In this document: piece after piece, positions 31,269 through 44,840 of the stretch
How positions within the stretch are numbered: position 1 is the stretch's first letter
How the letters are laid out: every line of letters begins with the position of its first letter
Virus record (IMG/VR): IMGVR_UViG_2534681708_000006
Span: 1-48,263 of that record
DNA from: a virus
Taxonomy: Duplodnaviria; Heunggongvirae; Uroviricota; Caudoviricetes
Reading direction: 5' to 3' (one strand)
Length of the DNA: 48,263 nt
Translations under genes and position numbers: made by a program
Notes under the pieces: generated by a model
Databases searched by the model: none
The model's input: only the letters and a program-made list of their open reading frames with translations
What the model was told of the DNA's origin: nothing

Positions 31269-32199
31269 GGAATTAGCTGAACAGCACAGTTCGCAGCTCT
31301 CGTCCGTTCTTAAATCCGCAGTGGAAACTATCTCGTCAGACCAGGAAATCACGTTCAGGCTCTATGTCCGGCAGGTTCTGCCGCTGGATGGCTTTGTCTA
31401 TTGGGTTAATGCGGAAATCATCAGTTGCGATGAACTGTGTCGCCTGAATATTGAGTCACCAACTCGTCTGAAAATCAAAGGCAGTCTGCATCGTCAGGTT
31501 ATTGCGATTCAGGACGAGTCTGTCTCGAAGGATGTGAACAACATTATTTTCACGCCTGTTCAGCAGGTTGATGATTTTAATGTGGAAAATCCCGATGCGA
31601 TCTATCTCGGTGAGTACGGCGGCGTCCAGTTTGCTTTTTCTCGAATGGAGAGCCGTTATCAGCAGTCGGGTATTTTTCATTATCGCGGTATGGCGATTTT
31701 ACCAACCATGCGCTCTCAGATTATCGACTGCGAGGAGGATATCAGCGACGAGCAGATCATCTCCAACAGCATCCCGATCTGGCTGCAAATGAAAGATGCC
31801 GCGACCGTGTATCCGTCTTACCTGGTACCGCAGAACCTTCGCCCTCCGTATATCGCGGTGGATGTTCGCAACAGTATTTCGTTGCAGGTGGCTCCCGTTG
31901 TTTTCGGCGGTGAGCGGTTCCAGCTAGTCCAGGATTCGGTTCGCCTGACGCTTTACGGATTCAGCAACAAAATGGCGCTGGATCTTGTCGACTCGGTGGT
32001 GAACAGGGCGTTGGAGGAGGAAAAGTTTGGTGTAACCAATATTCCGGTGGTTCAGGACGCAAAGTCGGGACAGGTTGAAATCAACGCTCTGGCGAAGAAA
32101 AAGATTGTCGATTTTGACGTGAATTACTACCAGAGCACAGCCCGGGAAATATCCCGGCAGTTGATTGAAAAAGTTATTTGTAAATATGAGGTTAAATAA
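31255..32199 (+). CDS. Hypothetical structural protein
   Basis: 314 aa; position before sheath gene. Confidence 0.4.
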   Translation: MPSLEELAEQHSSQLSSVLKSAVETISSDQEITFRLYVRQVLPLDGFVYWVNAEIISCDELCRLNIESPTRLKIKGSLHRQVIAIQDESVSKDVNNIIFTPVQQVDDFNVENPDAIYLGEYGGVQFAFSRMESRYQQSGIFHYRGMAILPTMRSQIIDCEEDISDEQIISNSIPIWLQMKDAATVYPSYLVPQNLRPPYIAVDVRNSISLQVAPVVFGGERFQLVQDSVRLTLYGFSNKMALDLVDSVVNRALEEEKFGVTNIPVVQDAKSGQVEINALAKKKIVDFDVNYYQSTAREISRQLIEKVICKYEVK

Positions 32200-33536
32200 T
32201 GGGATTTAATATCGTCACGGTGAATGTGTCCCAGACCATCGGGGTCATACCCTCGAATCTGCAGCAGATGTCTGCGGTTCTCTCGTTTGGCTCCACGACT
32301 CATGAACCGGGGAAGCCTGTATTACTCACCAGCAATCAGGATATTAACGATCTGGTTAAAAATCCGATTGCTGCGTTGTCGGCGGCTGCCGCAGGAAAAT
32401 CTGCGGCAAACGTCACCGTTACGATGACGCTTCCGGAAGGGAGCAACATCCGACGCGAAAACAGTTCTGAGGTGAAAATTGTTGTTTCCGGGTGTTTGCC
32501 CGACGCGTGGAATGGCGAATATACTGCTACCGTCACGGATGAAAAAACACTGACCTGGACGATTGCTGATTCTCAGCTTTCCGGTTCGCCAGTGACACTG
32601 GGGCAGTTTTCCATTGTCGGCAGTGAAAATCTGGTGACGGCAGTAAACACGTTTTTTGCCCAGGGAAATTCAGTTGGGATTTACCTGCTGGAGCTGGGAG
32701 TACAGAAAGGCGGGGTCAGTAAGGAAATCGCTGCACTGAAAGCTTATATGGAAGATCCGCTCCTGCGTTTTTACGCGTATCTGGTGCCGCAGTCGTGGGA
32801 TGGTGACGCGGAGTTTATCAGTCTGGCAAAACTCCACACCGCCAACGAAGCGATGCAGTATTTCTTCGTGCTGACGAAAACGCCGGACGACACGAATTAC
32901 GTTTCGCCTTATGCCGGTATTAAGTCGGTTATTGCAACGGCGGATGATACGTACCCGGCGACAAACGCGGCAGCAGCCGTAATGTGGAACTATGTTTCCG
33001 CATCACCTTCAGAAATCAACAAGGTGCCGCCGATGGCATTTCGCTATCTGCAGGCGGTAAACGCCCACAAGGGCAAAAATTCCATTCTGGCCACGATGAC
33101 GAAGCAGAATATTAACTACGTCGAAACGGGGGCTGAGGGCGGAATCTCCAACACGATCCTGGTGAAAGGCGTTACCAGTGACGGTAACGATATGACGTAC
33201 TGGTATTCCGTGGACTGGGTGCAGATTAATGTCGATATGCAGCTCGCCAACACGGTGATCAACGGCAGCAATAACCCAATTAACCCGCTTTACTACAACC
33301 AGGACGGGATCGACCGTCTACAGCAGGTCGCACAGGCGGTGTTCAATACGGGCGTATCTTACGGCCTGGTCAACGGCCAGCCTGTCGTCGATGCAGTGCC
33401 TTTCCGCCAGTATATCAACACGAATCCGAATGATTACGGTATCGGGCGTTATGCGGGCCTTTCGGCCTCCTATACGCCGATGCGCGGATTTGTCGAAATC
33501 ATTTTTAACATCAATGTGACAATGCAGCTTTCGTGA
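32199..33536 (+). CDS. Putative tail sheath protein
   Basis: 445 aa followed by a 147-aa tube-sized gene, chaperone pair and tape measure. Confidence 0.5.
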   Translation: MGFNIVTVNVSQTIGVIPSNLQQMSAVLSFGSTTHEPGKPVLLTSNQDINDLVKNPIAALSAAAAGKSAANVTVTMTLPEGSNIRRENSSEVKIVVSGCLPDAWNGEYTATVTDEKTLTWTIADSQLSGSPVTLGQFSIVGSENLVTAVNTFFAQGNSVGIYLLELGVQKGGVSKEIAALKAYMEDPLLRFYAYLVPQSWDGDAEFISLAKLHTANEAMQYFFVLTKTPDDTNYVSPYAGIKSVIATADDTYPATNAAAAVMWNYVSASPSEINKVPPMAFRYLQAVNAHKGKNSILATMTKQNINYVETGAEGGISNTILVKGVTSDGNDMTYWYSVDWVQINVDMQLANTVINGSNNPINPLYYNQDGIDRLQQVAQAVFNTGVSYGLVNGQPVVDAVPFRQYINTNPNDYGIGRYAGLSASYTPMRGFVEIIFNINVTMQLS

Positions 33537-33547
33537 GGGACTGAACC

Positions 33548-33991
33548 GTGCCTAATCCAATGATCCCCGTTGGCACCCTTAACCGGGTTCGCGCCAGCGT
33601 TAAATTCACCTCTCATTCCGAACTGAATGTGTCCGCCTCATTTCTGGCAAAAGAAGGCGTCGAATTGTCCTTTCAGGGCAATATCACGGAGTTTTTACCC
33701 GCCATGACGGGAGCCGTGCAGTCGCCGCAGCCATACATGATTTTACAGGCGCGTGTTCATCTGCTGCGTAGCCAGGCGCTGGGGAAACAATTCAAGGCGC
33801 AATGGGAAAAGAACGCCACGATCGGCGACGCAAAAGTGTATAGCGACAGCACGGTGTTCGGTGACTTCGATATCTATAACACGGCGATCACCAACGTGCA
33901 GGATATGACCTTCGCCGGGGGCGAGCCGGGTGTGGCCATCACCATTACCGGTACGTATTACATCAACTCTGAAATGTGGGATTTGGTATGA
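33548..33991 (+). CDS. Putative tail tube protein
   Basis: Size and position. Confidence 0.45.
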   Translation: MPNPMIPVGTLNRVRASVKFTSHSELNVSASFLAKEGVELSFQGNITEFLPAMTGAVQSPQPYMILQARVHLLRSQALGKQFKAQWEKNATIGDAKVYSDSTVFGDFDIYNTAITNVQDMTFAGGEPGVAITITGTYYINSEMWDLV

Positions 33992-34605
33992 AAATCGCGC
34001 GAAATTTAAACCTGATTATTCCTGTCCAGACCGAGAAAGGTAAAGCCTGGATTCACGCCACGCCGATCAGCAAAGAGGTGTTTAAAGAGCATTTCTTCAT
34101 CCTGAGTAAAACCTTTTCTGCCATTTTTTCTGAAGGTCTTGGCGTCGTTGCGGGTCCGCGTATCGCTTTTCTGATGCTGGAGCGGATCTCGCGTGATTCC
34201 GGTATCTGGGACGATGATAAGGGAGTTCGTAATACGCTGGTGAACGAAATAATTCGCCTGGCAAACCTTGTTTATCCGGTGGAGGGCAAAGGTTACGACA
34301 CAATCCCTCTTGATATGGCGCTGGAGCGTGAAATCGTTGAGCTGGATGATGTTGCGGGTGAACTCGTTTTTTTTACATGCGTCTCGTCGATAAATTCACC
34401 GGAGCAGGCGAAGGGGACTATGGATGTGGTCAATGGAATATGGAGCACTCAATGCTCGTCATTGAATCTTACGGAATGGATCGCTTCATTGCCGACATTG
34501 AAATCAGCCGCCAGTTCTGGCGCGACGGCGAACACGTCATCAGCGACATCCTCGACTACTCAGCCGGAGCCGGATTCAGAGACATCTGTGCAGATTCCGG
34601 TCTGA
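33976..34605 (+). CDS. Putative tail assembly chaperone (zero-frame product)
   Basis: Lies between tube and tape measure; contains a T8 slippery run at 34367..34374. Confidence 0.45.
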   Translation: MGFGMKIARNLNLIIPVQTEKGKAWIHATPISKEVFKEHFFILSKTFSAIFSEGLGVVAGPRIAFLMLERISRDSGIWDDDKGVRNTLVNEIIRLANLVYPVEGKGYDTIPLDMALEREIVELDDVAGELVFFTCVSSINSPEQAKGTMDVVNGIWSTQCSSLNLTEWIASLPTLKSAASSGATANTSSATSSTTQPEPDSETSVQIPV

Positions 34606-34670
34606 ATGTAAAAACGGCAGCTCAGTTTCGTGAGCTGCTCAAATTCAAAAATCCCGCAGGAGTATTGTGA
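34377..34670 (+). CDS. -1 frame extension ORF (candidate frameshift fusion product with the chaperone)
   Basis: -1 frame opens at 34362 just before the T8 run and ends at the tape-measure start; no RBS of its own. Confidence 0.35.
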   Translation: MRLVDKFTGAGEGDYGCGQWNMEHSMLVIESYGMDRFIADIEISRQFWRDGEHVISDILDYSAGAGFRDICADSGLNVKTAAQFRELLKFKNPAGVL

Positions 34671-36709
34671 TGGCTGGTAACCAGATGCCAGTTCTGACGC
34701 TGGATGTTAATGAAGAACACCTCAAGCGGCTTGAGGCGATATTTGAAAAGTATCGCAATGGTCTGATGATTGGCCCTGCCGGAACGCCAATGAAAATTCC
34801 GGGGCAGAGTGGGCGCGGCGTGGGCGCTGGTTTGCCCGTGGCGGCAAATTCTGGTCGGACAGGACCGGATGTATCCGGGAGAGTGAGGGACGAAAAAGGG
34901 CGCTTTGTTGGCAGCGGAAAAACACCTGATTCGCTGGTGAGCAACTATAAAGGTCGCGGCGAAACGATGTTTGATAAGTATCTCAGTAGTCTGGGTAAAA
35001 ACGCTCAGGGGACGCTGAAAACTTACAAGCAGATCAATTCTACGCTACAGACGACCACTTCGAGATTAAACAACCTGTTTAAAACCACCGTATCGTGGGG
35101 GACAAAACTTGCAGTTATGGGCGTTGCCGGGCCGTTTGGCTTTGGCATGATGGCTCGTAATGTTGTAGAGAAACAGAAAAATGCTGATGAATTGCAGGCA
35201 ACGCCAGGAGAGTTAAAGGCGGCAGAAAGCACTTATTCGCCTTATTTTTCCGGTGTTGGTAATTTGCTCAATACACTGGCAGCCGCGCAGAATGACACTC
35301 AGCATCCTGCCTACAACGGGCTAATTGGGTTAGGGATAAATCCTAAAAAAGGGGCAGCAGAAAATCTCCCTGTGTTGTTAGAAAGAGTTGCTGCTCTTGC
35401 AAAGGAGTATGAGGGAACAGGATTAACTCAAGGGATGTTAAACGGGAGGGGGCTGGGTTGGGTTAACTTTGGCTTTGCTAACCAGTTAGTCAAATATCAG
35501 GACAAAATACCTGAACTCAACAAAGAGTTTTTATTGCGGGCTTCTCAGAATGACTCGTTGCTCACATCTGGACATACAAGTCAGTATCAGAATCTTACCA
35601 GTAACTTAGAAAATAACTGGGACCGGCTTACCAGCGGATTTCAGGGAGCGCTGGCCGGGAATGCAGACGCTTTAATCAGAATTTCTGATGGTACTACGAA
35701 TGCTGCCCTGAATTTCATGAATGGTGAGAACTTTAAAAGGATTCTGACAGATGTAGAAACGGGGCTGGATAAACTTGGTAAGTACGTTAATGGCCCGGAT
35801 TTTAATAACGACCTGAACAATTTTGCCGAAAACGTTGCAAAGGTCACCAAAGCTCTTGGCGGATTTGTTGGCTTTGCGGTTGAACATCCCTGGCTTTTTG
35901 GGGCCGCAGTGCTTGCCGGGCCATCAAGAGTTGGTGCTGTGGCAGCTACAACAACCGGAGTTGCCGCCCGTGTTGTAGGCGGAAGCCTTCTAGGGGCTAC
36001 AGCTGGAACAGTAGCAGGATTGGCTATTCCTACGAATAACACACCTACCACCAGTGAGGAAATGAAAGGGCTGGAAGGCCGTTTTAATTTTGAATATTTT
36101 AATGAAGTGCAGGAGTGGCAAAAAAACAATCCTGGCAAGGTCTGGCCTGGAGGATTGCAGAAATATTCGAACAATGTAAACAGATCAACATATTTATCCA
36201 GAGGGATCAGGAATAACAATCCCGGAAACCTTAATTTCGCAGGACAAAAAGGGGCTACTCTGGAATCAGGGCCAAATGCCCGTTTTGCCAGCTTCCCGAC
36301 GATGCTGGAAGGTATCGCCGCCTTAGATCGGCAGGTCATGCTATACCTGAAACGAGGCAAAAATACGATTGATCAGATTATTGATATTTATGCCCCTTCA
36401 TCTGATGGAAATAACACATCGTCCTATAAAAGCTATCTCTCTCAGTACACTGGATTAGGTGTTAAGGAGAAAATCGATGGTTCTAATTTTGAGCTAATGA
36501 GAAAGCTAATTCAGGGCATTATTAACCATGAAAATGGGGCCGCCGCTCGTGCTGTAAGTGGCGATGATGTGATGCGGGCGCTGGCAATGAACCGGGGGAA
36601 CGTATATTCACCAAATAATGCTTCTCAGGTAATCAGGCTCGAAGTTCAACAAAAACCAGGTTCAGATATACTGGCACAACTCGCCGGAATGCAACAAATA
36701 CCGGGGTAA
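34670..36709 (+). CDS. Putative tail tape measure protein
   Basis: 679 aa, Gly/Ala-rich hydrophobic central segments; AGGAG RBS; ORF track start GTG 34667. Confidence 0.55.
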   Translation: MAGNQMPVLTLDVNEEHLKRLEAIFEKYRNGLMIGPAGTPMKIPGQSGRGVGAGLPVAANSGRTGPDVSGRVRDEKGRFVGSGKTPDSLVSNYKGRGETMFDKYLSSLGKNAQGTLKTYKQINSTLQTTTSRLNNLFKTTVSWGTKLAVMGVAGPFGFGMMARNVVEKQKNADELQATPGELKAAESTYSPYFSGVGNLLNTLAAAQNDTQHPAYNGLIGLGINPKKGAAENLPVLLERVAALAKEYEGTGLTQGMLNGRGLGWVNFGFANQLVKYQDKIPELNKEFLLRASQNDSLLTSGHTSQYQNLTSNLENNWDRLTSGFQGALAGNADALIRISDGTTNAALNFMNGENFKRILTDVETGLDKLGKYVNGPDFNNDLNNFAENVAKVTKALGGFVGFAVEHPWLFGAAVLAGPSRVGAVAATTTGVAARVVGGSLLGATAGTVAGLAIPTNNTPTTSEEMKGLEGRFNFEYFNEVQEWQKNNPGKVWPGGLQKYSNNVNRSTYLSRGIRNNNPGNLNFAGQKGATLESGPNARFASFPTMLEGIAALDRQVMLYLKRGKNTIDQIIDIYAPSSDGNNTSSYKSYLSQYTGLGVKEKIDGSNFELMRKLIQGIINHENGAAARAVSGDDVMRALAMNRGNVYSPNNASQVIRLEVQQKPGSDILAQLAGMQQIPG

Positions 36710-39614: not shown

Positions 39615-39962
39615 ATGAGAACATGGGGCCGCGTCACTGACGCGAACGGCAACAAAAAATGGGTTGCAGTAGAATCTGACACCAGCGGTGATTTCTCCTA
39701 CGGCTGGCTGACGACGCTCATTCAGACGTTAAAGCTGGGGTTGGGGGAGTCGCCGTTTTACGCGAATTACGGCATTCCTGCGCAGCAGTGCATCGTGCAG
39801 CAGATTTACCCGGACTACTATGTGAACATGGTTCAGCAACAGTTTGCCGGGTATTTTGCATCGCTGGCAATTTCAAAGGTAGATGGGGCAGAGAACCCCA
39901 CCTATAACATCGATGTTGTGTTTTTTAACGGAACCAGTTACCGGACGCAGGTTCCGGTTTGA
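39615..39962 (+). CDS. Hypothetical protein (gpW-like baseplate position)
   Basis: 115 aa from ATG inside ORF 39582..39962. Confidence 0.4.
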   Translation: MRTWGRVTDANGNKKWVAVESDTSGDFSYGWLTTLIQTLKLGLGESPFYANYGIPAQQCIVQQIYPDYYVNMVQQQFAGYFASLAISKVDGAENPTYNIDVVFFNGTSYRTQVPV

Positions 39963-40498
39963 GGCAAGTTTTCGGGTATCAATTGGGCCAGTGGCGTATT
40001 AAGAAGTTCATCGCGTGGCATGACAATCCATCCACTTTTGCGTAGTAAGTGAATTGCCCATTCTGTGGTTATAACTGAGCCTGATTTGTGGTGCTCAATG
40101 TGGGTAACCGATCCGTTTCTGACGCGCATGATGATGTCAACATTCAGAGGGGGTTGTGTGCTGGTAGTTTCTTCGCGTAGTTTCTTCTCGCACTCGATGA
40201 AGTATCGGCGGATCTGGCGGCCTTTTTCGTTGCGTTCGACCATAGCCAGCTCTTTGGCGGTGTCCAGGGTGAGATGGTAGTCTTTGGCTGGTCTGCCTCT
40301 ACCGATTTTTTCCCGATTTTGGGAAATAATCAAAAAGTCCTGATTTTCTACGAATTCATACTCGCTGATTCGTTCGGTAATCCAAGTGGCAAAGCGTTTA
40401 CCTACTTCGAGAAAGGCATGCAGATCGCGAGCGTTGCATAGAAGGATGGTTTCGTTCGAAATGGTTCCGTTGAACACGGTGATGAGTTGGGTGGTCAT
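39938..40498 (-). CDS. Antirepressor (AntA-type N-terminal domain)
   Basis: 186 aa from MTTQLITVFNGTISNETILLCNARDLHAFLEVGKRFATWITERI; AAGAGG RBS; opposite strand within tail module. Confidence 0.6.
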   Translation of the reverse strand: MTTQLITVFNGTISNETILLCNARDLHAFLEVGKRFATWITERISEYEFVENQDFLIISQNREKIGRGRPAKDYHLTLDTAKELAMVERNEKGRQIRRYFIECEKKLREETTSTQPPLNVDIIMRVRNGSVTHIEHHKSGSVITTEWAIHLLRKSGWIVMPRDELLNTPLAQLIPENLPQTGTCVR

Positions 40499-40835
40499 AG
40501 TAACCTCTTTTGGCTTTTTTCGAATTGCCACTAACGTAGTGGCGCCGGGAGGTTCGAAACGGCCCAAAAGATACCGCGGACTTATTCCCCTTTCGGGTGT
40601 TGTATTCGTCGCCCTCCCGACATTGATCGGGGTTGTGATCGCACATATTGCCATCACAAAAAAAAGGCATAAAAAAACCAACACATTGTAGGGTGCTGGG
40701 TAATCAGCTTTTGGGGGAGGTTTCGACGCCTCATGCGTCCAATCATACTCAACTGGGCGCGGTTGTAAAGTATGAACTTGAACAGACATTAAGAATGGGT
40801 AAAATTTGTTCTCCTGTTTTATAAGGAGATTAAGG

Positions 40836-41582
40836 ATGTCTAAGTTAAAATTATTTGTAGTGTTTACCTTTTTATTACAAATAGGAACTGCGAATGCAGT
40901 ATCTTTTGATTGCTCGAAAGCTAAATCATATTCTGAAAAGTTAATTTGCAACAACAGTGAATTATCTGAACTTGATGATAAATTAAATTCTTTATATCAA
41001 AAAGTAAAGTTAGAGAGCACTGATAAGAAAGCTTTTAGAAAAATTGTTTCAGACTTGTGGAATGAAAGAGAGAAGTGCAAAACAGAATCATGTGTTCGAC
41101 AATGGTATTCTAATGCATTCAGGGAATATTCATCTTTAAATGAAATTAATGAGAACATAATCAATGAATCAGAGAATTACGCTGAATGGTATATTGATGG
41201 TGCGCTGATAATATTACCTCCATTGGAAGGTGTTAGTAAAAATAGATTCCTGATGTATGGCGATGATGGAACAATAGCTATTTTTATTGCTTCAAAATCT
41301 AAAGGTAATGGATTTTGCGATAATTCAGTGCAAATTGATGGCCCATTAGAATATCCACCAATTTTGATTAATGGTGAATATTATAAAACTTATAAATCAT
41401 GCTTGTATGGAAATGGTTTTATAGTGCCAAAAACTGAAATTGGTAAAGCAGTTCTGAAAGAGTTGGTTATGAAAATGAAGCCTATAAAAATTTCTTTTGG
41501 AGACGGCGATGAATTTAACTATCCTCCATCAAATGTAAAAAGAATGCTTGAGAGGGTGGAAAAAATGAAACAGGCAAAATAA
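40836..41582 (+). CDS. Secreted protein with N-terminal LprI/DUF1311-like domain
   Basis: Signal peptide MSKLKLFVVFTFLLQIGTANA; Cys pattern C...C...C with LNSLYQK as in DUF1311; AT-rich; AAGGAG RBS. Confidence 0.55.
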   Translation: MSKLKLFVVFTFLLQIGTANAVSFDCSKAKSYSEKLICNNSELSELDDKLNSLYQKVKLESTDKKAFRKIVSDLWNEREKCKTESCVRQWYSNAFREYSSLNEINENIINESENYAEWYIDGALIILPPLEGVSKNRFLMYGDDGTIAIFIASKSKGNGFCDNSVQIDGPLEYPPILINGEYYKTYKSCLYGNGFIVPKTEIGKAVLKELVMKMKPIKISFGDGDEFNYPPSNVKRMLERVEKMKQAK

Positions 41583-41624: not shown

Positions 41625-42851
41625 ATGTCAGAAATACCAATTACTATGACCAGTGCGGGTGCGCAGCCTACGCCACCCAATGATTTGCTCGCGAATCTTA
41701 TCACCAGAGTTGCTGAAAAAGTACCTGGATATACAGCCAACCTTCCGGCAGGACTTATTACAGACCTTGCCAGCACGGCAGTAGGGGCGCTGGCATTAAT
41801 AGACCAGGCGCGGGTGGACCTTATTAACTCTGTAAGCCCATACGGCGCGAATATTCCGTTACTGATGCAACTCGGAAACATATATGGAGCACAGAAGGGA
41901 TTAAGTACAAATACGGCGGTATACGTGGTGTTTGAGGCGTTACCGGGGTTTGGTATCCCTAAAGGATTTGTGGTTGGTGACGGTAACTACCAGTATGCAG
42001 TTTCCCGCGATACGGTGGTTCCGGAAAGTGGGCAGACTGAACCAGTCTACTGTGTGGCCACTACGTCAGGCTCATGGGCTGTACCGGAAGGGACCGTGAC
42101 GCAGGTCATTACATCAGTACCAAAAGACCAGCCTGTAAAATGCACGAACCTAACCGCAGGGATGCCAGGTCAGGAGGCGCAAACGTGGGCATCTTACCGC
42201 GCCGAAGTCATGGAGTCCGGCATGTTTGGTGTGCAGGGAACACCGGATTGCTTTAAAGCGATGCTCAAATCAGTAAACGGTGTGCGAGAAAACCTGATTT
42301 CTTTTCGGCAGTCGTCGCTGGGGAAATGGGTTGCGGTTGTTGGTGGCGGTGATCCGTATGATGTGGCTTATGCGATTTACAAATCTGTACCGGATATTTC
42401 GAAACTGACCAACGATGTAAGCAATCCATCCGGTGCGGCAGTGGAAAAACGCACGGTTTCAATAACCGTTTCGCCGGACGTTTATCAGGTGCCGTTCGTT
42501 ATCCCGTCATCACAAAACGTCATGGTGCTAATCACCTGGAACACGGTGTCTGATGATTATGTTGATCCGGCGGGTATTGCTATGGCTGTGCAGCAAAACG
42601 TTGCTGATTACATCAATTCAATTGAAGTCGGACACCCGATAAATCTTCTGCGTATCCAGGATATTTTTACCAGTTCCGTCAGGTTGCTGGTTGATGCGAC
42701 GTTGATCTCAACAATCAGTGTGAGCATTGGTATTAACGGCCATATTGTTCTTCCGGCGAAAGACACAAGCCTGGTTTATGGCGATACCTATTCCTATTTT
42801 TCAACGGTGGCATCACAGGTTCAGGTCAACAAGCATGCAATATCTGACTGA
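41625..42851 (+). CDS. Baseplate J-like protein
   Basis: 408 aa; position and size consistent with P2 gpJ family. Confidence 0.55.
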   Translation: MSEIPITMTSAGAQPTPPNDLLANLITRVAEKVPGYTANLPAGLITDLASTAVGALALIDQARVDLINSVSPYGANIPLLMQLGNIYGAQKGLSTNTAVYVVFEALPGFGIPKGFVVGDGNYQYAVSRDTVVPESGQTEPVYCVATTSGSWAVPEGTVTQVITSVPKDQPVKCTNLTAGMPGQEAQTWASYRAEVMESGMFGVQGTPDCFKAMLKSVNGVRENLISFRQSSLGKWVAVVGGGDPYDVAYAIYKSVPDISKLTNDVSNPSGAAVEKRTVSITVSPDVYQVPFVIPSSQNVMVLITWNTVSDDYVDPAGIAMAVQQNVADYINSIEVGHPINLLRIQDIFTSSVRLLVDATLISTISVSIGINGHIVLPAKDTSLVYGDTYSYFSTVASQVQVNKHAISD

Positions 42852-43461
42852 GAAAATTCTCCCTGCTTATCCATTTGCGCAGTACAGAGATGATCCGAAT
42901 GTTGTTGCGTTCTTTGATGCATACAATGAAATTGCTCAGGAATACCTCGATTCACTCAACAATCTGGCATTGCCATGCTGGACATCGGAATCAATAACCG
43001 GGCAATTACTGGACTGGATTGCACTCGGGATTTATGGCGTTGAAAGGCCTTTACTACAGGTTTCCGAGGAGGCTATTGCACGCGGCGCATACGATACCAT
43101 TGAATACAATACAATCCCTTATGCGGCAATGCGGAATTACGTTCCAGGGCAGGCATCGTATGTCCCTGATGATTATTTCAAACGAATATTAACGTGGAAT
43201 TTTTATAAGGCTGACGGTTCGCATTTCTGCATTGACTGGTTAAAGCGCCGTGTGGCGCGGTTCATTCATGGGAAAAACGGAATAGACCCGCCGTTGCAGC
43301 ACACTTTTGATGTGAGCGTGACTGTATCGGAAAGTGTTTTTTCTATTCAGATACCAGAATATGGTGATGGTATAGGCTATTTTCTGAAAGATGCCATTGA
43401 CCAGAAATATGTAAAACTCCCTTTTATTTATTCCTATGCAACAACGGTGATTCAAAAATGA
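42835..43461 (+). CDS. Putative tail/baseplate protein (gpI position)
   Basis: ATG overlapping previous stop. Confidence 0.45.
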   Translation: MQYLTEKILPAYPFAQYRDDPNVVAFFDAYNEIAQEYLDSLNNLALPCWTSESITGQLLDWIALGIYGVERPLLQVSEEAIARGAYDTIEYNTIPYAAMRNYVPGQASYVPDDYFKRILTWNFYKADGSHFCIDWLKRRVARFIHGKNGIDPPLQHTFDVSVTVSESVFSIQIPEYGDGIGYFLKDAIDQKYVKLPFIYSYATTVIQK

Positions 43462-44840
43462 TTCTTGGATTCGGCAATAACGTTGTTTCAGCACTGGCTG
43501 GTGATATTACGACGATTCAGACTGATATTCCGGTGATGCCGGGCACGGGAGCTAAATTTGCAAAATTGCTTTCTGCCGATTTTGAAAATAAATCGAACGG
43601 GCAACGCGTCTATGCAAAAATTACGCTTACCGATAATAAAGAGTCTGCATTTGAGATTTGTCACCTGGTATCGGTAAGCGGTGATGTGTTGAAAGTCATT
43701 CGTGGGCAGGAAGGAACGACCGCGAAAGGTTGGTCCCTTAATGACGTTGTGGCTAACTTTGCCACGCGTGGTTCGGAAAACTATTTCGTACAGATAGCGC
43801 AGCTTCAGAGCGGTCATTATGTTGCGGGTGTTGCTGGTGGCACTGCAAACGCACTGACGCTGGAACTTCCCTCGACGTTTTTTGTTAATGGAGGTACAGA
43901 CTGGACGCTACGAACCCCGATTATCGTTTTCCCCGTTCAGAACAATACCAACGCGGCGACACTTCAACTAACACTAGGCGGAAAGGTTCTTGGCACGTTC
44001 CCACTTTATAAGGGGAACAAGTCCGGGTTGGTAGCGAATGATATCATTAAGGGTATTCCTTTGATTTGTCTTCTTGATAGCGAGAAAAGCTATTTCAGCG
44101 TGATAAACCCTGGAAATATCTATTCAGATTTTGATCTGCGATATGTAAAAAAATCTGGTGATTTGATGACCGGGGAGCTGAAAATCCGTGGTGTTAATGC
44201 GCTGAGGATTTTCAACGACGCTTTTGGCCTTATTTTTCGTCGTTCGGAAGAGTGCCTGCACCTTATCCCTACCAGTGAAGGTCAGGGCGAGAATGGCGAT
44301 ATTGGTCCACTTCGCCCGTTCACTATTAATCTGCGGACGGGTGAAATATCCATGTCGCATAAAGTGTCTGTTGGCGGTGGTTCTCAGGTCAATGGTGCGC
44401 TGGGTATCGGCGTTCAGAACGCGCTGGGCGGAAACTCAATTGCAATTGGTGACAGTGATACTGGCTTTAAACAGAATGGTGACGGCCTGCTGGATGTTTA
44501 TGCCAATGGACAGCATGTATTCCGTTTTCAGAATGGCGCGTTACAAAGCAATCGGGCGGTGAACGTTACAGGGCGGGTAACACCGTCAGACTACGGAAAC
44601 TTTGATGCACGTTACCAGACGAAATCAGGGAGCGTGCAGAATTTTCAGTATACCAACGAGGTGTTTCACAATCCCGGAGGAAACGAAATCACGTGGACGT
44701 TTCGTGCTCCTTCAGGTTGTGTTTTATCTGGTATTTACGTTCAGGAAACGGGAAGCAGGTCAGCAGATAATATTGGTGGTGTGTATTACAAACAGGCTCA
44801 GATTTATATTGATGGCGCATGGCGCTCCGTATCAGGTTAA
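43458..44840 (+). CDS. Tail fibre protein
   Basis: 460 aa, Gly-rich C-terminal repeats; followed by an assembly chaperone. Confidence 0.55.
   Translation: MILGFGNNVVSALAGDITTIQTDIPVMPGTGAKFAKLLSADFENKSNGQRVYAKITLTDNKESAFEICHLVSVSGDVLKVIRGQEGTTAKGWSLNDVVANFATRGSENYFVQIAQLQSGHYVAGVAGGTANALTLELPSTFFVNGGTDWTLRTPIIVFPVQNNTNAATLQLTLGGKVLGTFPLYKGNKSGLVANDIIKGIPLICLLDSEKSYFSVINPGNIYSDFDLRYVKKSGDLMTGELKIRGVNALRIFNDAFGLIFRRSEECLHLIPTSEGQGENGDIGPLRPFTINLRTGEISMSHKVSVGGGSQVNGALGIGVQNALGGNSIAIGDSDTGFKQNGDGLLDVYANGQHVFRFQNGALQSNRAVNVTGRVTPSDYGNFDARYQTKSGSVQNFQYTNEVFHNPGGNEITWTFRAPSGCVLSGIYVQETGSRSADNIGGVYYKQAQIYIDGAWRSVSG

What the first reader, a model, noticed from the sequence alone, without database searches (positions are those of the whole stretch)
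34362..34670. Candidate programmed -1 frameshift at a T8 run in the tail assembly chaperone gene (or a homopolymer length error)
The -1 frame opens at 34362, the slippery heptamer T_TTT_TTT lies at 34368..34374, and the -1 frame then runs to 34670, abutting the tape-measure start. This is the geometry of G/GT-type chaperone frameshifts. The zero frame continues into low-complexity S/T-rich sequence. A T9 in the true sequence would instead fuse both frames into one 231-aa protein.
Basis: partly seen in the sequence, partly recalled or inferred. Interest (0 to 1): 0.45.

Follow-up and report, generated by a model that had tools for sequence, protein, structure and literature searches.

The report
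Frameshift in phage tail chaperone gene
A run of eight T's inside a prophage tail-assembly gene is a real, evolutionarily conserved signal that lets some ribosomes slip back one base and make a second protein with a different tail end; this is a well-known phage trick, here found in an unannotated gene family and with an unusually long stretch of DNA read in two frames.

Summary
T8 lies at 34367-34374. The heptamer T_TTT_TTT (34368-34374) is in the correct phase of the gene 33988-34605. The -1 frame opens at 34362 and runs 98 codons to TGA 34668-34670, overlapping by one base the ATG of the tape-measure-like gene.

The homopolymer-error alternative is rejected. All 13 complete-genome relatives have T8. 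Of 84 phage and genome loci (38-98% protein identity), 81 have T8, one has T7 (the exact heptamer) and two have T9, always in the same phase. The 205-aa form occurs on thousands of contigs; fused forms are rare.

Both reading frames downstream are conserved and stop-free in every relative. The -1 ORF has no conserved start codon and always ends at the next gene. The best explanation is a G/GT-type (P2 E/E+E'-type) programmed -1 ribosomal frameshift. It would yield a 205-aa zero-frame protein and a 227-aa trans-frame protein.

It differs from lambda and P2 in three ways. The slip lies 76 codons before the zero-frame stop. It falls inside the predicted globular fold. It creates a 231-nt dual-coding overlap. 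The zero-frame tail is not junk: only its last ~35 residues are S/T-rich and disordered.

No protein or RNA data exist, and transcriptional slippage on T8 is not excluded. Verdict: a new member of a known kind, of moderate interest.

The parts
33988..34605 (+). Zero-frame gene for the short chaperone-like product ('G-like', 205 aa)
   Evidence: ORF. The same 618-nt CDS is annotated as 'hypothetical protein' in all relatives. It matches phrog_11810, function unknown. There are 626 representative homologues. AF2 gives pLDDT 95-98 for residues 8-170 and predicts disorder for 171-205.
34367..34374 (+). T8 run containing the slippery heptamer T_TTT_TTT (34368-34374); last T is at codon position 3
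   Evidence: In 84 loci: 81 T8, 1 T7 and 2 T9, with the same phase in every T7/T8 locus. F128 and F129 are invariant in alignment A2.
34374..34670 (+). -1 frame segment ('T-like' domain, 98 codons plus TGA), read after the slip. It begins with Tyr (TAC) and its stop overlaps the ATG of the next gene by one base
   Evidence: It matches phrog_14324, function unknown. It is conserved at z = 14-29 against distant relatives. It is predicted helical with pLDDT 67-78.
33988..34670 (+). Span of the predicted trans-frame product (129 + 98 = 227 aa; junction ...GELVFF|YMRLVDK...)
   Evidence: Inferred. P0001, a T9-type fusion, is 94% identical over its full length. Distant single-ORF N+T forms exist: P0125, P0133 and P0177.
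34375..34602 (+). Dual-coding overlap (76 zero-frame codons). Both frames are stop-free and conserved in all relatives
   Evidence: Codon-phase diversity changes from .054/.035/.266 upstream to .057/.108/.108 in the overlap. There are 0 stops in the zero and -1 frames against 1-9 in the +1 frame.
34606..34667 (+). Apparent 'intergenic gap' of existing annotations. It actually codes for the last 21 codons of the -1 frame
   Evidence: Searches show a gap of about 64 nt in every record. Searches show the -1 frame filling it.
32199..33536 (+). Tail sheath gene (context)
   Evidence: phrog_205 'tail sheath', E = 1.2e-54.
33548..33991 (+). 147-aa ORF in the tail-tube position (context; function inferred from position only)
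   Evidence: phrog_6566, function unknown. Synteny of a ~450-aa ORF, a ~147-aa ORF, the chaperone and an SLT protein is kept in distant relatives.
34670..36709 (+). Tape-measure-like protein with a C-terminal lytic transglycosylase domain (context)
   Evidence: phrog_2276 'tail length tape measure protein', E = 3.5e-30 over residues 481-628. Relatives are annotated with an SLT domain.

Best explanation
The gene 33988-34605 lies between the sheath and tube genes and the tape-measure gene of a temperate myovirus-type prophage. It is a tail-assembly-chaperone-like gene expressed as two proteins.

Most ribosomes read straight through and make a 205-aa protein. That protein is a globular domain of about 170 residues followed by a disordered S/T-rich tail.

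A minority of ribosomes slip back one base when the two tRNA-Phe occupy UUU UUU of U_UUU_UUU (34368-34374). They then read TAC ATG CGT... in the -1 frame to TGA 34668-34670. The result is a 227-aa protein made of the first 129 residues, a flexible linker and a helical domain of about 75 residues.

By analogy with lambda G/GT and P2 E/E+E', the shared N-terminal part would bind the tape-measure protein and the -1 domain would recruit the tube protein. The fixed ratio set by slippage would matter for tail assembly.

Shown here: the geometry, the authenticity of T8, conservation of the site and its phase, and conservation of both frames.

Inferred: that slippage occurs, that it is ribosomal, its efficiency, and the binding partners.
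For: 1. Geometry is exact.
2. T8 is genuine: 13 of 13 complete-genome relatives, 82 of 84 loci with T7 or T8 in phase, and the 205-aa form on thousands of contigs.
3. The site is kept down to 38-45% identity in Sphingomonadaceae and Acetobacteraceae MAGs. This includes a T7 that is exactly the heptamer (L016) and a T8 in L102.
4. V/I-F-F is invariant. The next zero-frame codon is always A[CT]N, so the -1 frame always starts with Tyr.
5. The -1 ORF is open for 97-109 codons in every locus and encodes a conserved motif (YG..F..DI...R.FWRDGEH..S..LDY..G.GF), with z = 14-29.
6. The ATG at 34377 has no SD and is replaced by CTG, AGT, TGT or ATC in distant relatives, so independent initiation is unlikely.
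7. The -1 stop abuts or overlaps the tape-measure start in all lineages.
8. Representative homologues align to the fusion query only up to residue ~130, which is the slip site.
9. Codon-phase diversity switches from a single-frame to a dual-frame pattern at the slip.
10. U_UU.U_UU.U belongs to the efficient H_HH.U_UU.Y class in E. coli (PMC4066793).
11. P2, a myovirus of the same host, uses T_TTT_TTG at the same gene position.
Against: - There is no protein, ribosome-profiling or RNA evidence of any kind.
- No stimulatory RNA structure lies downstream (z = +0.3 to +0.8; no consensus structure).
- The upstream SD-like GGGTGA (34356-34361) is not conserved in distant relatives.
- There is no sequence or significant fold similarity to any named chaperone family.
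- The slip lies inside the predicted fold of the short product, unlike lambda and P2.
- A T8 run could also support RNA polymerase slippage.
- Conservation of the zero frame in the overlap is only modestly above the non-coding +1 control in the most distant comparisons.
Confidence: 0.72

Rival explanations
1. Transcriptional slippage. RNA polymerase stutters on the T8 run and adds one U to a fraction of the mRNAs. Standard translation of those mRNAs then gives the same 227-aa protein. The biology (two products in a fixed ratio) is the same; only the level at which the frame changes differs.
For: 81 of 84 loci carry T8 rather than the minimal T7. UUUUUUU runs are avoided in all three frames of E. 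coli genes, which has been attributed partly to transcriptional slippage (PMC4066793). Runs of 9 A or T slip efficiently in bacteria (PMC5009743). No ribosomal stimulator was found.
Against: The run is 8, below the 9 cited for efficient slippage. L016 keeps only T7 in the exact heptamer phase, and L104 keeps only T6 (C_TTT_TTT), yet both retain an intact -1 ORF. The eighth T is the middle base of a hydrophobic V/I codon, so amino-acid constraint explains it. The phase is invariant.
Confidence: 0.17
2. Sequencing or assembly error. The true sequence has T9 and the gene is a single 227-aa ORF.
For: Homopolymers are error-prone. Fused forms exist (P0001 on 6 contigs; L080 and L014 with T9).
Against: T8 is found in 13 of 13 complete genomes from independent projects and in 81 of 84 other loci. 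The 205-aa form occurs on thousands of contigs. The zero-frame tail is conserved, stop-free and confidently folded. It stays intact in the other frame even in the T9 contigs.
Confidence: 0.02
3. Two independent genes. The -1 ORF is translated from its own start (ATG 34377) as a separate 97-aa protein, as some gene callers annotate it (phrog_14324, P0127).
For: An ATG follows the T run directly in the close relatives. A 97-position PHROG family exists.
Against: There is no SD upstream. The ATG is replaced by CTG, AGT, TGT or ATC in distant relatives with no other conserved start. The -1 frame opens only 4 codons before the slip. Single-ORF N+T forms occur.
Confidence: 0.05
4. The -1 ORF is not expressed, and its openness and conservation are a by-product of constraint on the zero frame.
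For: Overlapping frames inherit some conservation: the non-coding +1 frame also scores z = 4.6-12.
Against: The -1 frame scores highest of the three in the distant comparisons. It has no stops in any of 84 loci over ~100 codons, against 1-9 stops in +1. It extends 21 codons beyond the zero-frame stop, exactly to the next gene.
Confidence: 0.03

Closest known systems
Bacteriophage P2 gpE / gpE+E' (myovirus tail assembly chaperone pair; annotated -1 frameshift, AF063097)
   Same: - Same gene order: sheath, tube, chaperone, tape measure.
- A -1 shift on a U-rich heptamer in the same host (T_TTT_TTG in P2, T_TTT_TTT here).
- The -1 ORF ends overlapping the tape-measure start.
   Different: - No detectable homology (hhalign probability 0.2%).
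- The P2 slip is 7 codons before the E stop, against 76 codons here.
- P2 products are 91 and 142 aa; here they are 205 and 227 aa, so the trans-frame product is only slightly longer and replaces about 76 residues rather than adding to a complete short protein.
Bacteriophage lambda gpG / gpGT (Levin et al. 1993; Xu et al. 2004, 2013, 2014, as summarised in PMC5009743)
   Same: - Two products share an N-terminus through a low-level -1 shift just upstream of the tape-measure gene.
- The -1 ORF abuts the tape-measure start.
- No strong RNA stimulator is required.
   Different: - Lambda is a siphovirus with heptamer G_GGA_AAG.
- Its G/T overlap is only 19 nt, against 231 nt here.
- GT contains essentially all of G, whereas here the slip lies inside the predicted fold.
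- There is no sequence similarity and no Pfam Phage_TAC hit.
Transcriptional-slippage fusions on T/A runs (Shigella mxiE; Thermus dnaX; IS elements; PMC5009743)
   Same: A homopolymeric T run links two frames to give an extended product.
   Different: Those runs are 9 or longer. Here the run is 8, or 7 or 6 in some relatives, and always in ribosomal-heptamer phase.

Membership tests
G/GT-type tail assembly chaperone with programmed -1 frameshift (Xu et al. 2004 definition) | Gene located immediately upstream of the tape-measure gene and downstream of the major tail or tube gene | tested here: met
   The order is sheath (phrog_205, E = 1.2e-54), a 147-aa ORF, this gene, then a 680-aa SLT/tape-measure-like protein. 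The same synteny is seen in distant relatives. The tube identity is positional only.
G/GT-type tail assembly chaperone with programmed -1 frameshift (Xu et al. 2004 definition) | In-phase slippery heptamer X_XXY_YYZ within the upstream ORF, with an overlapping -1 ORF that extends to the tape-measure gene | tested here: met
   T_TTT_TTT lies at 34368-34374. The -1 ORF runs to 34670 and overlaps ATG 34670.
G/GT-type tail assembly chaperone with programmed -1 frameshift (Xu et al. 2004 definition) | Slippery site and two-ORF arrangement conserved among diverged homologues | tested here: met
   82 of 84 loci have an in-phase T7 or T8 and a -1 ORF of 97-109 codons, at 38-98% identity. L102 and L104 agree.
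G/GT-type tail assembly chaperone with programmed -1 frameshift (Xu et al. 2004 definition) | Slip site close to the 3' end of the upstream ORF, so that the long product contains essentially all of the short one | tested here: not met
   The slip is 76 codons before the stop, against 6 in lambda and 7 in P2. Residues 130-170 of the short product are part of its predicted fold. This feature is typical rather than strictly defining.
G/GT-type tail assembly chaperone with programmed -1 frameshift (Xu et al. 2004 definition) | Both products actually made at a fixed ratio and required for tail assembly; neither present in virions | not testable with these tools
   This needs proteomics, immunoblots and genetics.
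Named chaperone sequence or fold families (Pfam Phage_TAC_*, NCBIfam, PHROG 'tail assembly chaperone', solved or predicted TAC structures) | Significant profile match or fold match | tested here: not met
Programmed transcriptional realignment sites | Homopolymer run long enough for RNA polymerase slippage (9 or more A/T in bacteria), with the reading-frame phase irrelevant | tested here: inconclusive
   The run is 8 here and 6-7 in some relatives. The phase is invariant. RNA data are needed.

The most novel reading that the evidence does not exclude
This may be a distinct architectural variant of the chaperone frameshift. The slip sits inside the globular fold of the short product, so the two proteins carry alternative, separately conserved C-terminal modules encoded by a dual-coding stretch of about 230 nt. 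This differs from 'short protein' versus 'short protein plus extension'.

Rare distant relatives have the N+T protein in the zero frame and the intact G-tail in the +1 frame (L099/L100 in two independent assemblies, and L101). They hint that the default frame can flip between lineages, which would require +1 or -2 shifting there.
Probability: 0.3. Interest if true: 0.55.

Novelty: new member of a known kind. Interest (0 to 1): 0.4.

Why it matters
Annotation. The gene is labelled 'hypothetical protein' in every relative examined: two phage records, 11 of the 92 matching E. coli genomes (whose hit table lists only 'hypothetical protein' under the gene), and PHROGs with unknown function. A 64-nt 'gap' is left before the tape-measure gene. 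Recognising the frameshift names the gene, explains the gap, and adds a 227-aa product to a family with more than 600 representative clusters.

Biology. The family extends the G/GT rule to a chaperone family with no detectable similarity to the known ones. It also offers a clean case of long dual coding, in which constraint is partitioned between frames: the zero frame is conserved first, then the -1 frame. That is useful for testing how much of the chaperone fold is needed in the long product.

Practice. The result shows that this T8 should not be 'corrected' during assembly polishing.

Tried and rejected
- **Downstream stimulatory RNA structure.** Single-sequence folds were no better than shuffles. 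RNAalifold on 12 diverged sequences predicted no pairs.
- **Upstream SD-like stimulator, GGGTGA 34356-34361.** It is present in close relatives but absent in L048, L016, L017 and L014, so it was dropped as a conserved element.
- **Homopolymer error.** Rejected.
- **Independent initiation at ATG 34377.** Rejected because the start is not conserved and has no SD.
- **Fused 226-263-aa proteins as proof of a natural fusion.** This is weakened. P0002-P0004 are indels elsewhere. P0125 is a T9 with the other frame intact. All are singletons, and the longest member may be favoured as cluster representative.
- **Tool failures.** The search for related loci with the 30-sequence alignment failed for lack of a conserved stretch; a 7-sequence alignment worked. 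The afdb50 fold library was unavailable.
- **Literature.** A search for a T7 slippery site in chaperone genes gave nothing useful. 'Rac-SA53' appears in one unrelated paper.

Full report
**What is there**

The window carries a temperate phage with a lambdoid-like early region and a contractile-tail late region. About 80% of 24 kb of the late region is 96-97% identical to 'Actinobacillus phage vB_Apl-pPE4' and Escherichia phage Rac-SA53.

In the late operon the order is as follows:
- sheath, 32199-33536 (phrog_205, E = 1.2e-54);
- a 147-aa ORF in the tube position, 33548-33991;
- the gene in question, ATG 33988 to stop 34603-34605, 205 aa;
- a 680-aa protein with a C-terminal lytic-transglycosylase domain, partly matching tape-measure PHROGs, starting at GTG 34667 or ATG 34670.

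The T run is 34367-34374. The zero-frame codons are GTT TTT TTT ACA, so T_TTT_TTT (34368-34374) is an in-phase X_XXY_YYZ heptamer. The -1 frame is closed by TGA 34359-34361 and opens at 34362. From 34374 (TAC ATG CGT) it stays open for 98 codons to TGA 34668-34670, which shares its A with the ATG of the next gene.

The predicted trans-frame product is 129 + 98 = 227 aa from ATG 33988.

**Is it more than chance?**

Within the window alone the case is suggestive, not conclusive:
- three T>=8 runs occur in 48 kb;
- a -1 frame open for >=98 codons occurs at 0.9% of codon positions in long ORFs;
- it occurs in 3% of codon-order shuffles of this tail.

The comparative data settle it.

**Is T8 genuine?**

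Megablast found the region in 2 phage records and 92 complete E. coli genomes. Thirteen of these were retrieved, at 83-99.9% DNA identity. All have T8 followed by an identical 20 nt, while synonymous sites upstream vary freely.

A scan of IMG/VR and of one genome per species gave 83 further loci, and L014 came from a contig look-up. In the 84 loci that were scored:
- 81 have T8;
- one has T7, with CTG TTT TTT T, which is exactly the heptamer (L016, a Sphingomonadaceae MAG);
- two have T9 (L080, L014);
- in every T7 or T8 locus the last T is at codon position 3.

In the 5.8-billion-protein collection the 205-aa form sits on thousands of contigs; single clusters account for 1000+, 676, 248 and 229 contigs. 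Only four proteins of 226-227 aa cover the fusion, each on one to six contigs. Three of those four owe their frame change to indels elsewhere.

In the T9 contig L014 the other frame still encodes the full conserved zero-frame tail. The homopolymer-error reading is therefore rejected for the family and, by extension, for this window.

**Are both frames coding?**

A full HMMER scan of 1.84 billion representatives with a fusion query (P0001) gave 626 hits. About 130 of the best 150 are proteins of 180-200 aa that align to the query only up to residue ~130, the slip site.

Alignment of diverged members shows the following:
- V/I-F-F at the slip is invariant.
- The next zero-frame codon is always A[CT]N (Thr, Ile or Met), so the -1 frame always begins with Tyr.

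Downstream, both frames are conserved:
- zero frame: ...GLW.SQ.TSLN.TE[YW]..SLP..., then S/T-rich, ending [IL]P[VSG];
- -1 frame: YG..F..DI...R.FWRDGEH..S..LDY..G.GF...TA.QLRE.

Against the most distant relatives (31-46% identity) the whole -1 domain scores z = 15-29 and the whole zero-frame tail z = 4.6-20.

Within the overlap alone, the non-coding +1 frame scores z = 4.6-12.5, so some conservation is inherited between frames. In the same overlap the -1 frame scores z = 13.9-21 and is the highest of the three in the deepest comparisons. Both the zero and -1 frames have no stops in any locus, against 1-9 in +1.

Among 14 close relatives, per-site diversity at zero-frame codon positions 1/2/3 is .054/.035/.266 upstream of the slip and .057/.108/.108 in the overlap. 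That is the signature of a switch from single to dual coding.

AlphaFold2 results:
- With a 30-sequence alignment, residues 8-170 of the zero-frame protein have pLDDT 95-98. This includes residues 130-170, which are encoded after the slip. Only 171-205 are predicted disordered.
- The fusion model has a confident N-domain (8-134), a disordered linker (136-148) and a helical C-domain with pLDDT 67-78.

**How is the -1 domain expressed?**

- The ATG at 34377 has no Shine-Dalgarno sequence. It is replaced by CTG, AGT, TGT or ATC in distant relatives, and no other start is conserved.
- The -1 frame opens only four codons before the heptamer.
- The -1 stop abuts or overlaps the next gene's start in every lineage (TGATG, TAATG, TAG-GTG and similar). 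The zero-frame stop leaves an unexplained gap of about 64 nt in every existing annotation.
- A trans-frame N+T polypeptide is the only consistent reading.

**Mechanism**

The heptamer allows both tRNA-Phe to re-pair perfectly. In E. coli, U_UU.U_UU.U falls in the efficient H_HH.U_UU.Y class. It shows more than 0.1% shifting without stimulators and is under-represented in genes (PMC4066793). Earlier work ranks it below A_AAA_AAG (PMC5009743).

No downstream structure is predicted. The upstream SD-like GGGTGA is not conserved. A low, unstimulated efficiency would fit the G:GT paradigm, which is 30:1 in lambda (PMC5009743).

Transcriptional slippage on T8 would give the same protein and cannot be excluded. 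Three points argue for the ribosome:
- the T7 in L016 and the T6 in L104;
- the invariant phase;
- the eighth T is simply the middle base of a hydrophobic codon.

My estimates are: ribosomal -1 shift 0.72, transcriptional slippage 0.17, all other explanations together about 0.1.

**Comparison with known systems**

| Feature | This gene | P2 | Lambda |
|---|---|---|---|
| Heptamer | T_TTT_TTT | T_TTT_TTG | G_GGA_AAG |
| Slip to zero-frame stop | 76 codons | 7 codons | about 6 codons |
| Overlap of the two frames | 231 nt | short | 19 nt |
| End of -1 ORF | overlaps the tape-measure start by 1 nt | overlaps T by 8 nt | overlaps H by 8 nt |
| Source | | | |

P2 has the order FII (tube), E/E+E', T. 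The present locus shares position, direction of shift, U-rich heptamer and abutment with the tape-measure gene. It differs in having the slip inside the predicted fold of the short product and a 231-nt dual-coding overlap.

It has no detectable sequence or significant fold similarity to named chaperone families:
- Pfam, NCBIfam and PDB sequence searches were negative.
- hhalign against gpE gave 0.2%.
- BFVD gave only sub-threshold hits, several of them named 'tail assembly chaperone'.

Functionally I file it as a G/GT-type chaperone frameshift. Family membership by homology is not shown.

**Novelty and score**

The phenomenon has been known since 1993 and 2004. This gene family is unannotated: it is 'hypothetical protein' in every record examined, the PHROG functions are unknown, and none of those records annotates a frameshift. 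I rate it a new member of a known kind with an atypical geometry. Interest is 0.4. It is solid and useful for annotation, mildly surprising in its architecture, and not a conceptual surprise.

**Limits**

- There are no expression data.
- The tube identity is positional.
- The roles of the two C-termini are by analogy.
- The rare 'flipped' arrangements in metagenomic singletons may be assembly errors.

Noticed in passing
L099:1326-2075 and L100:1030-1779 (two Logan assemblies); L101:1501-2184: In these distant relatives the N-domain runs in the zero frame straight into the T-like domain (249 and 227 aa). They have only a T6 run (GTG TTT TTT ACT, and GTT TTT TAC). The conserved G-type tail sits intact in the +1 frame. 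Either these are assembly errors, or the default frame is flipped in these lineages and a +1 or -2 shift would be needed for the short product.
   Followed up: partly
L080 (IMG/VR UViG_2896595138_000001), L014:3398-3406, protein P0001 (6 contigs): T9 variants fuse the two frames into one 227-233-aa ORF while the alternative tail frame stays intact. It is unknown whether these are homopolymer sequencing errors or natural slippage (phase-variant-like) alleles.
   Followed up: partly
L007 and L009 (E. coli ETEC1749, STEC346 prophages), upstream of the chaperone gene: In these two prophages the chaperone gene is preceded directly by a DUF2213-domain protein instead of the sheath and tube genes. 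Homology to the window starts only at the chaperone ATG. This suggests a deleted or mosaic tail module.
   Followed up: no
window 20000-44000 versus PP818812.1: A phage deposited as 'Actinobacillus phage vB_Apl-pPE4' is 97% identical over 83% of this 24-kb stretch, and the chaperone region it shares is also found in 92 E. coli chromosomes. The stated host looks doubtful, or the phage has an unusually broad distribution.
   Followed up: no
window 43419-43425 (+): An in-phase C_CCT_TTT heptamer lies 13 codons before the stop of ORF 42727-43461. The -1 frame is open into the next gene (43458-44840). This is probably coincidental proximity to an ATGA-type gene overlap.
   Followed up: no
window 40658-40677 (A8 and A7 runs on +; T runs in ORF 39938-40954 on the - strand): Two in-phase T-rich heptamers (TTTTTTA, TTTTTTT) lie inside a 338-aa minus-strand ORF. 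They are followed by -1 frames open for 86-90 codons. Not examined further.
   Followed up: no
window 34356-34361: An SD-like GGGTGA (AGGTGA in some relatives) lies 6 nt upstream of the heptamer. It is conserved among enterobacterial relatives but absent in distant ones, so it is at most a lineage-specific stimulator.
   Followed up: partly
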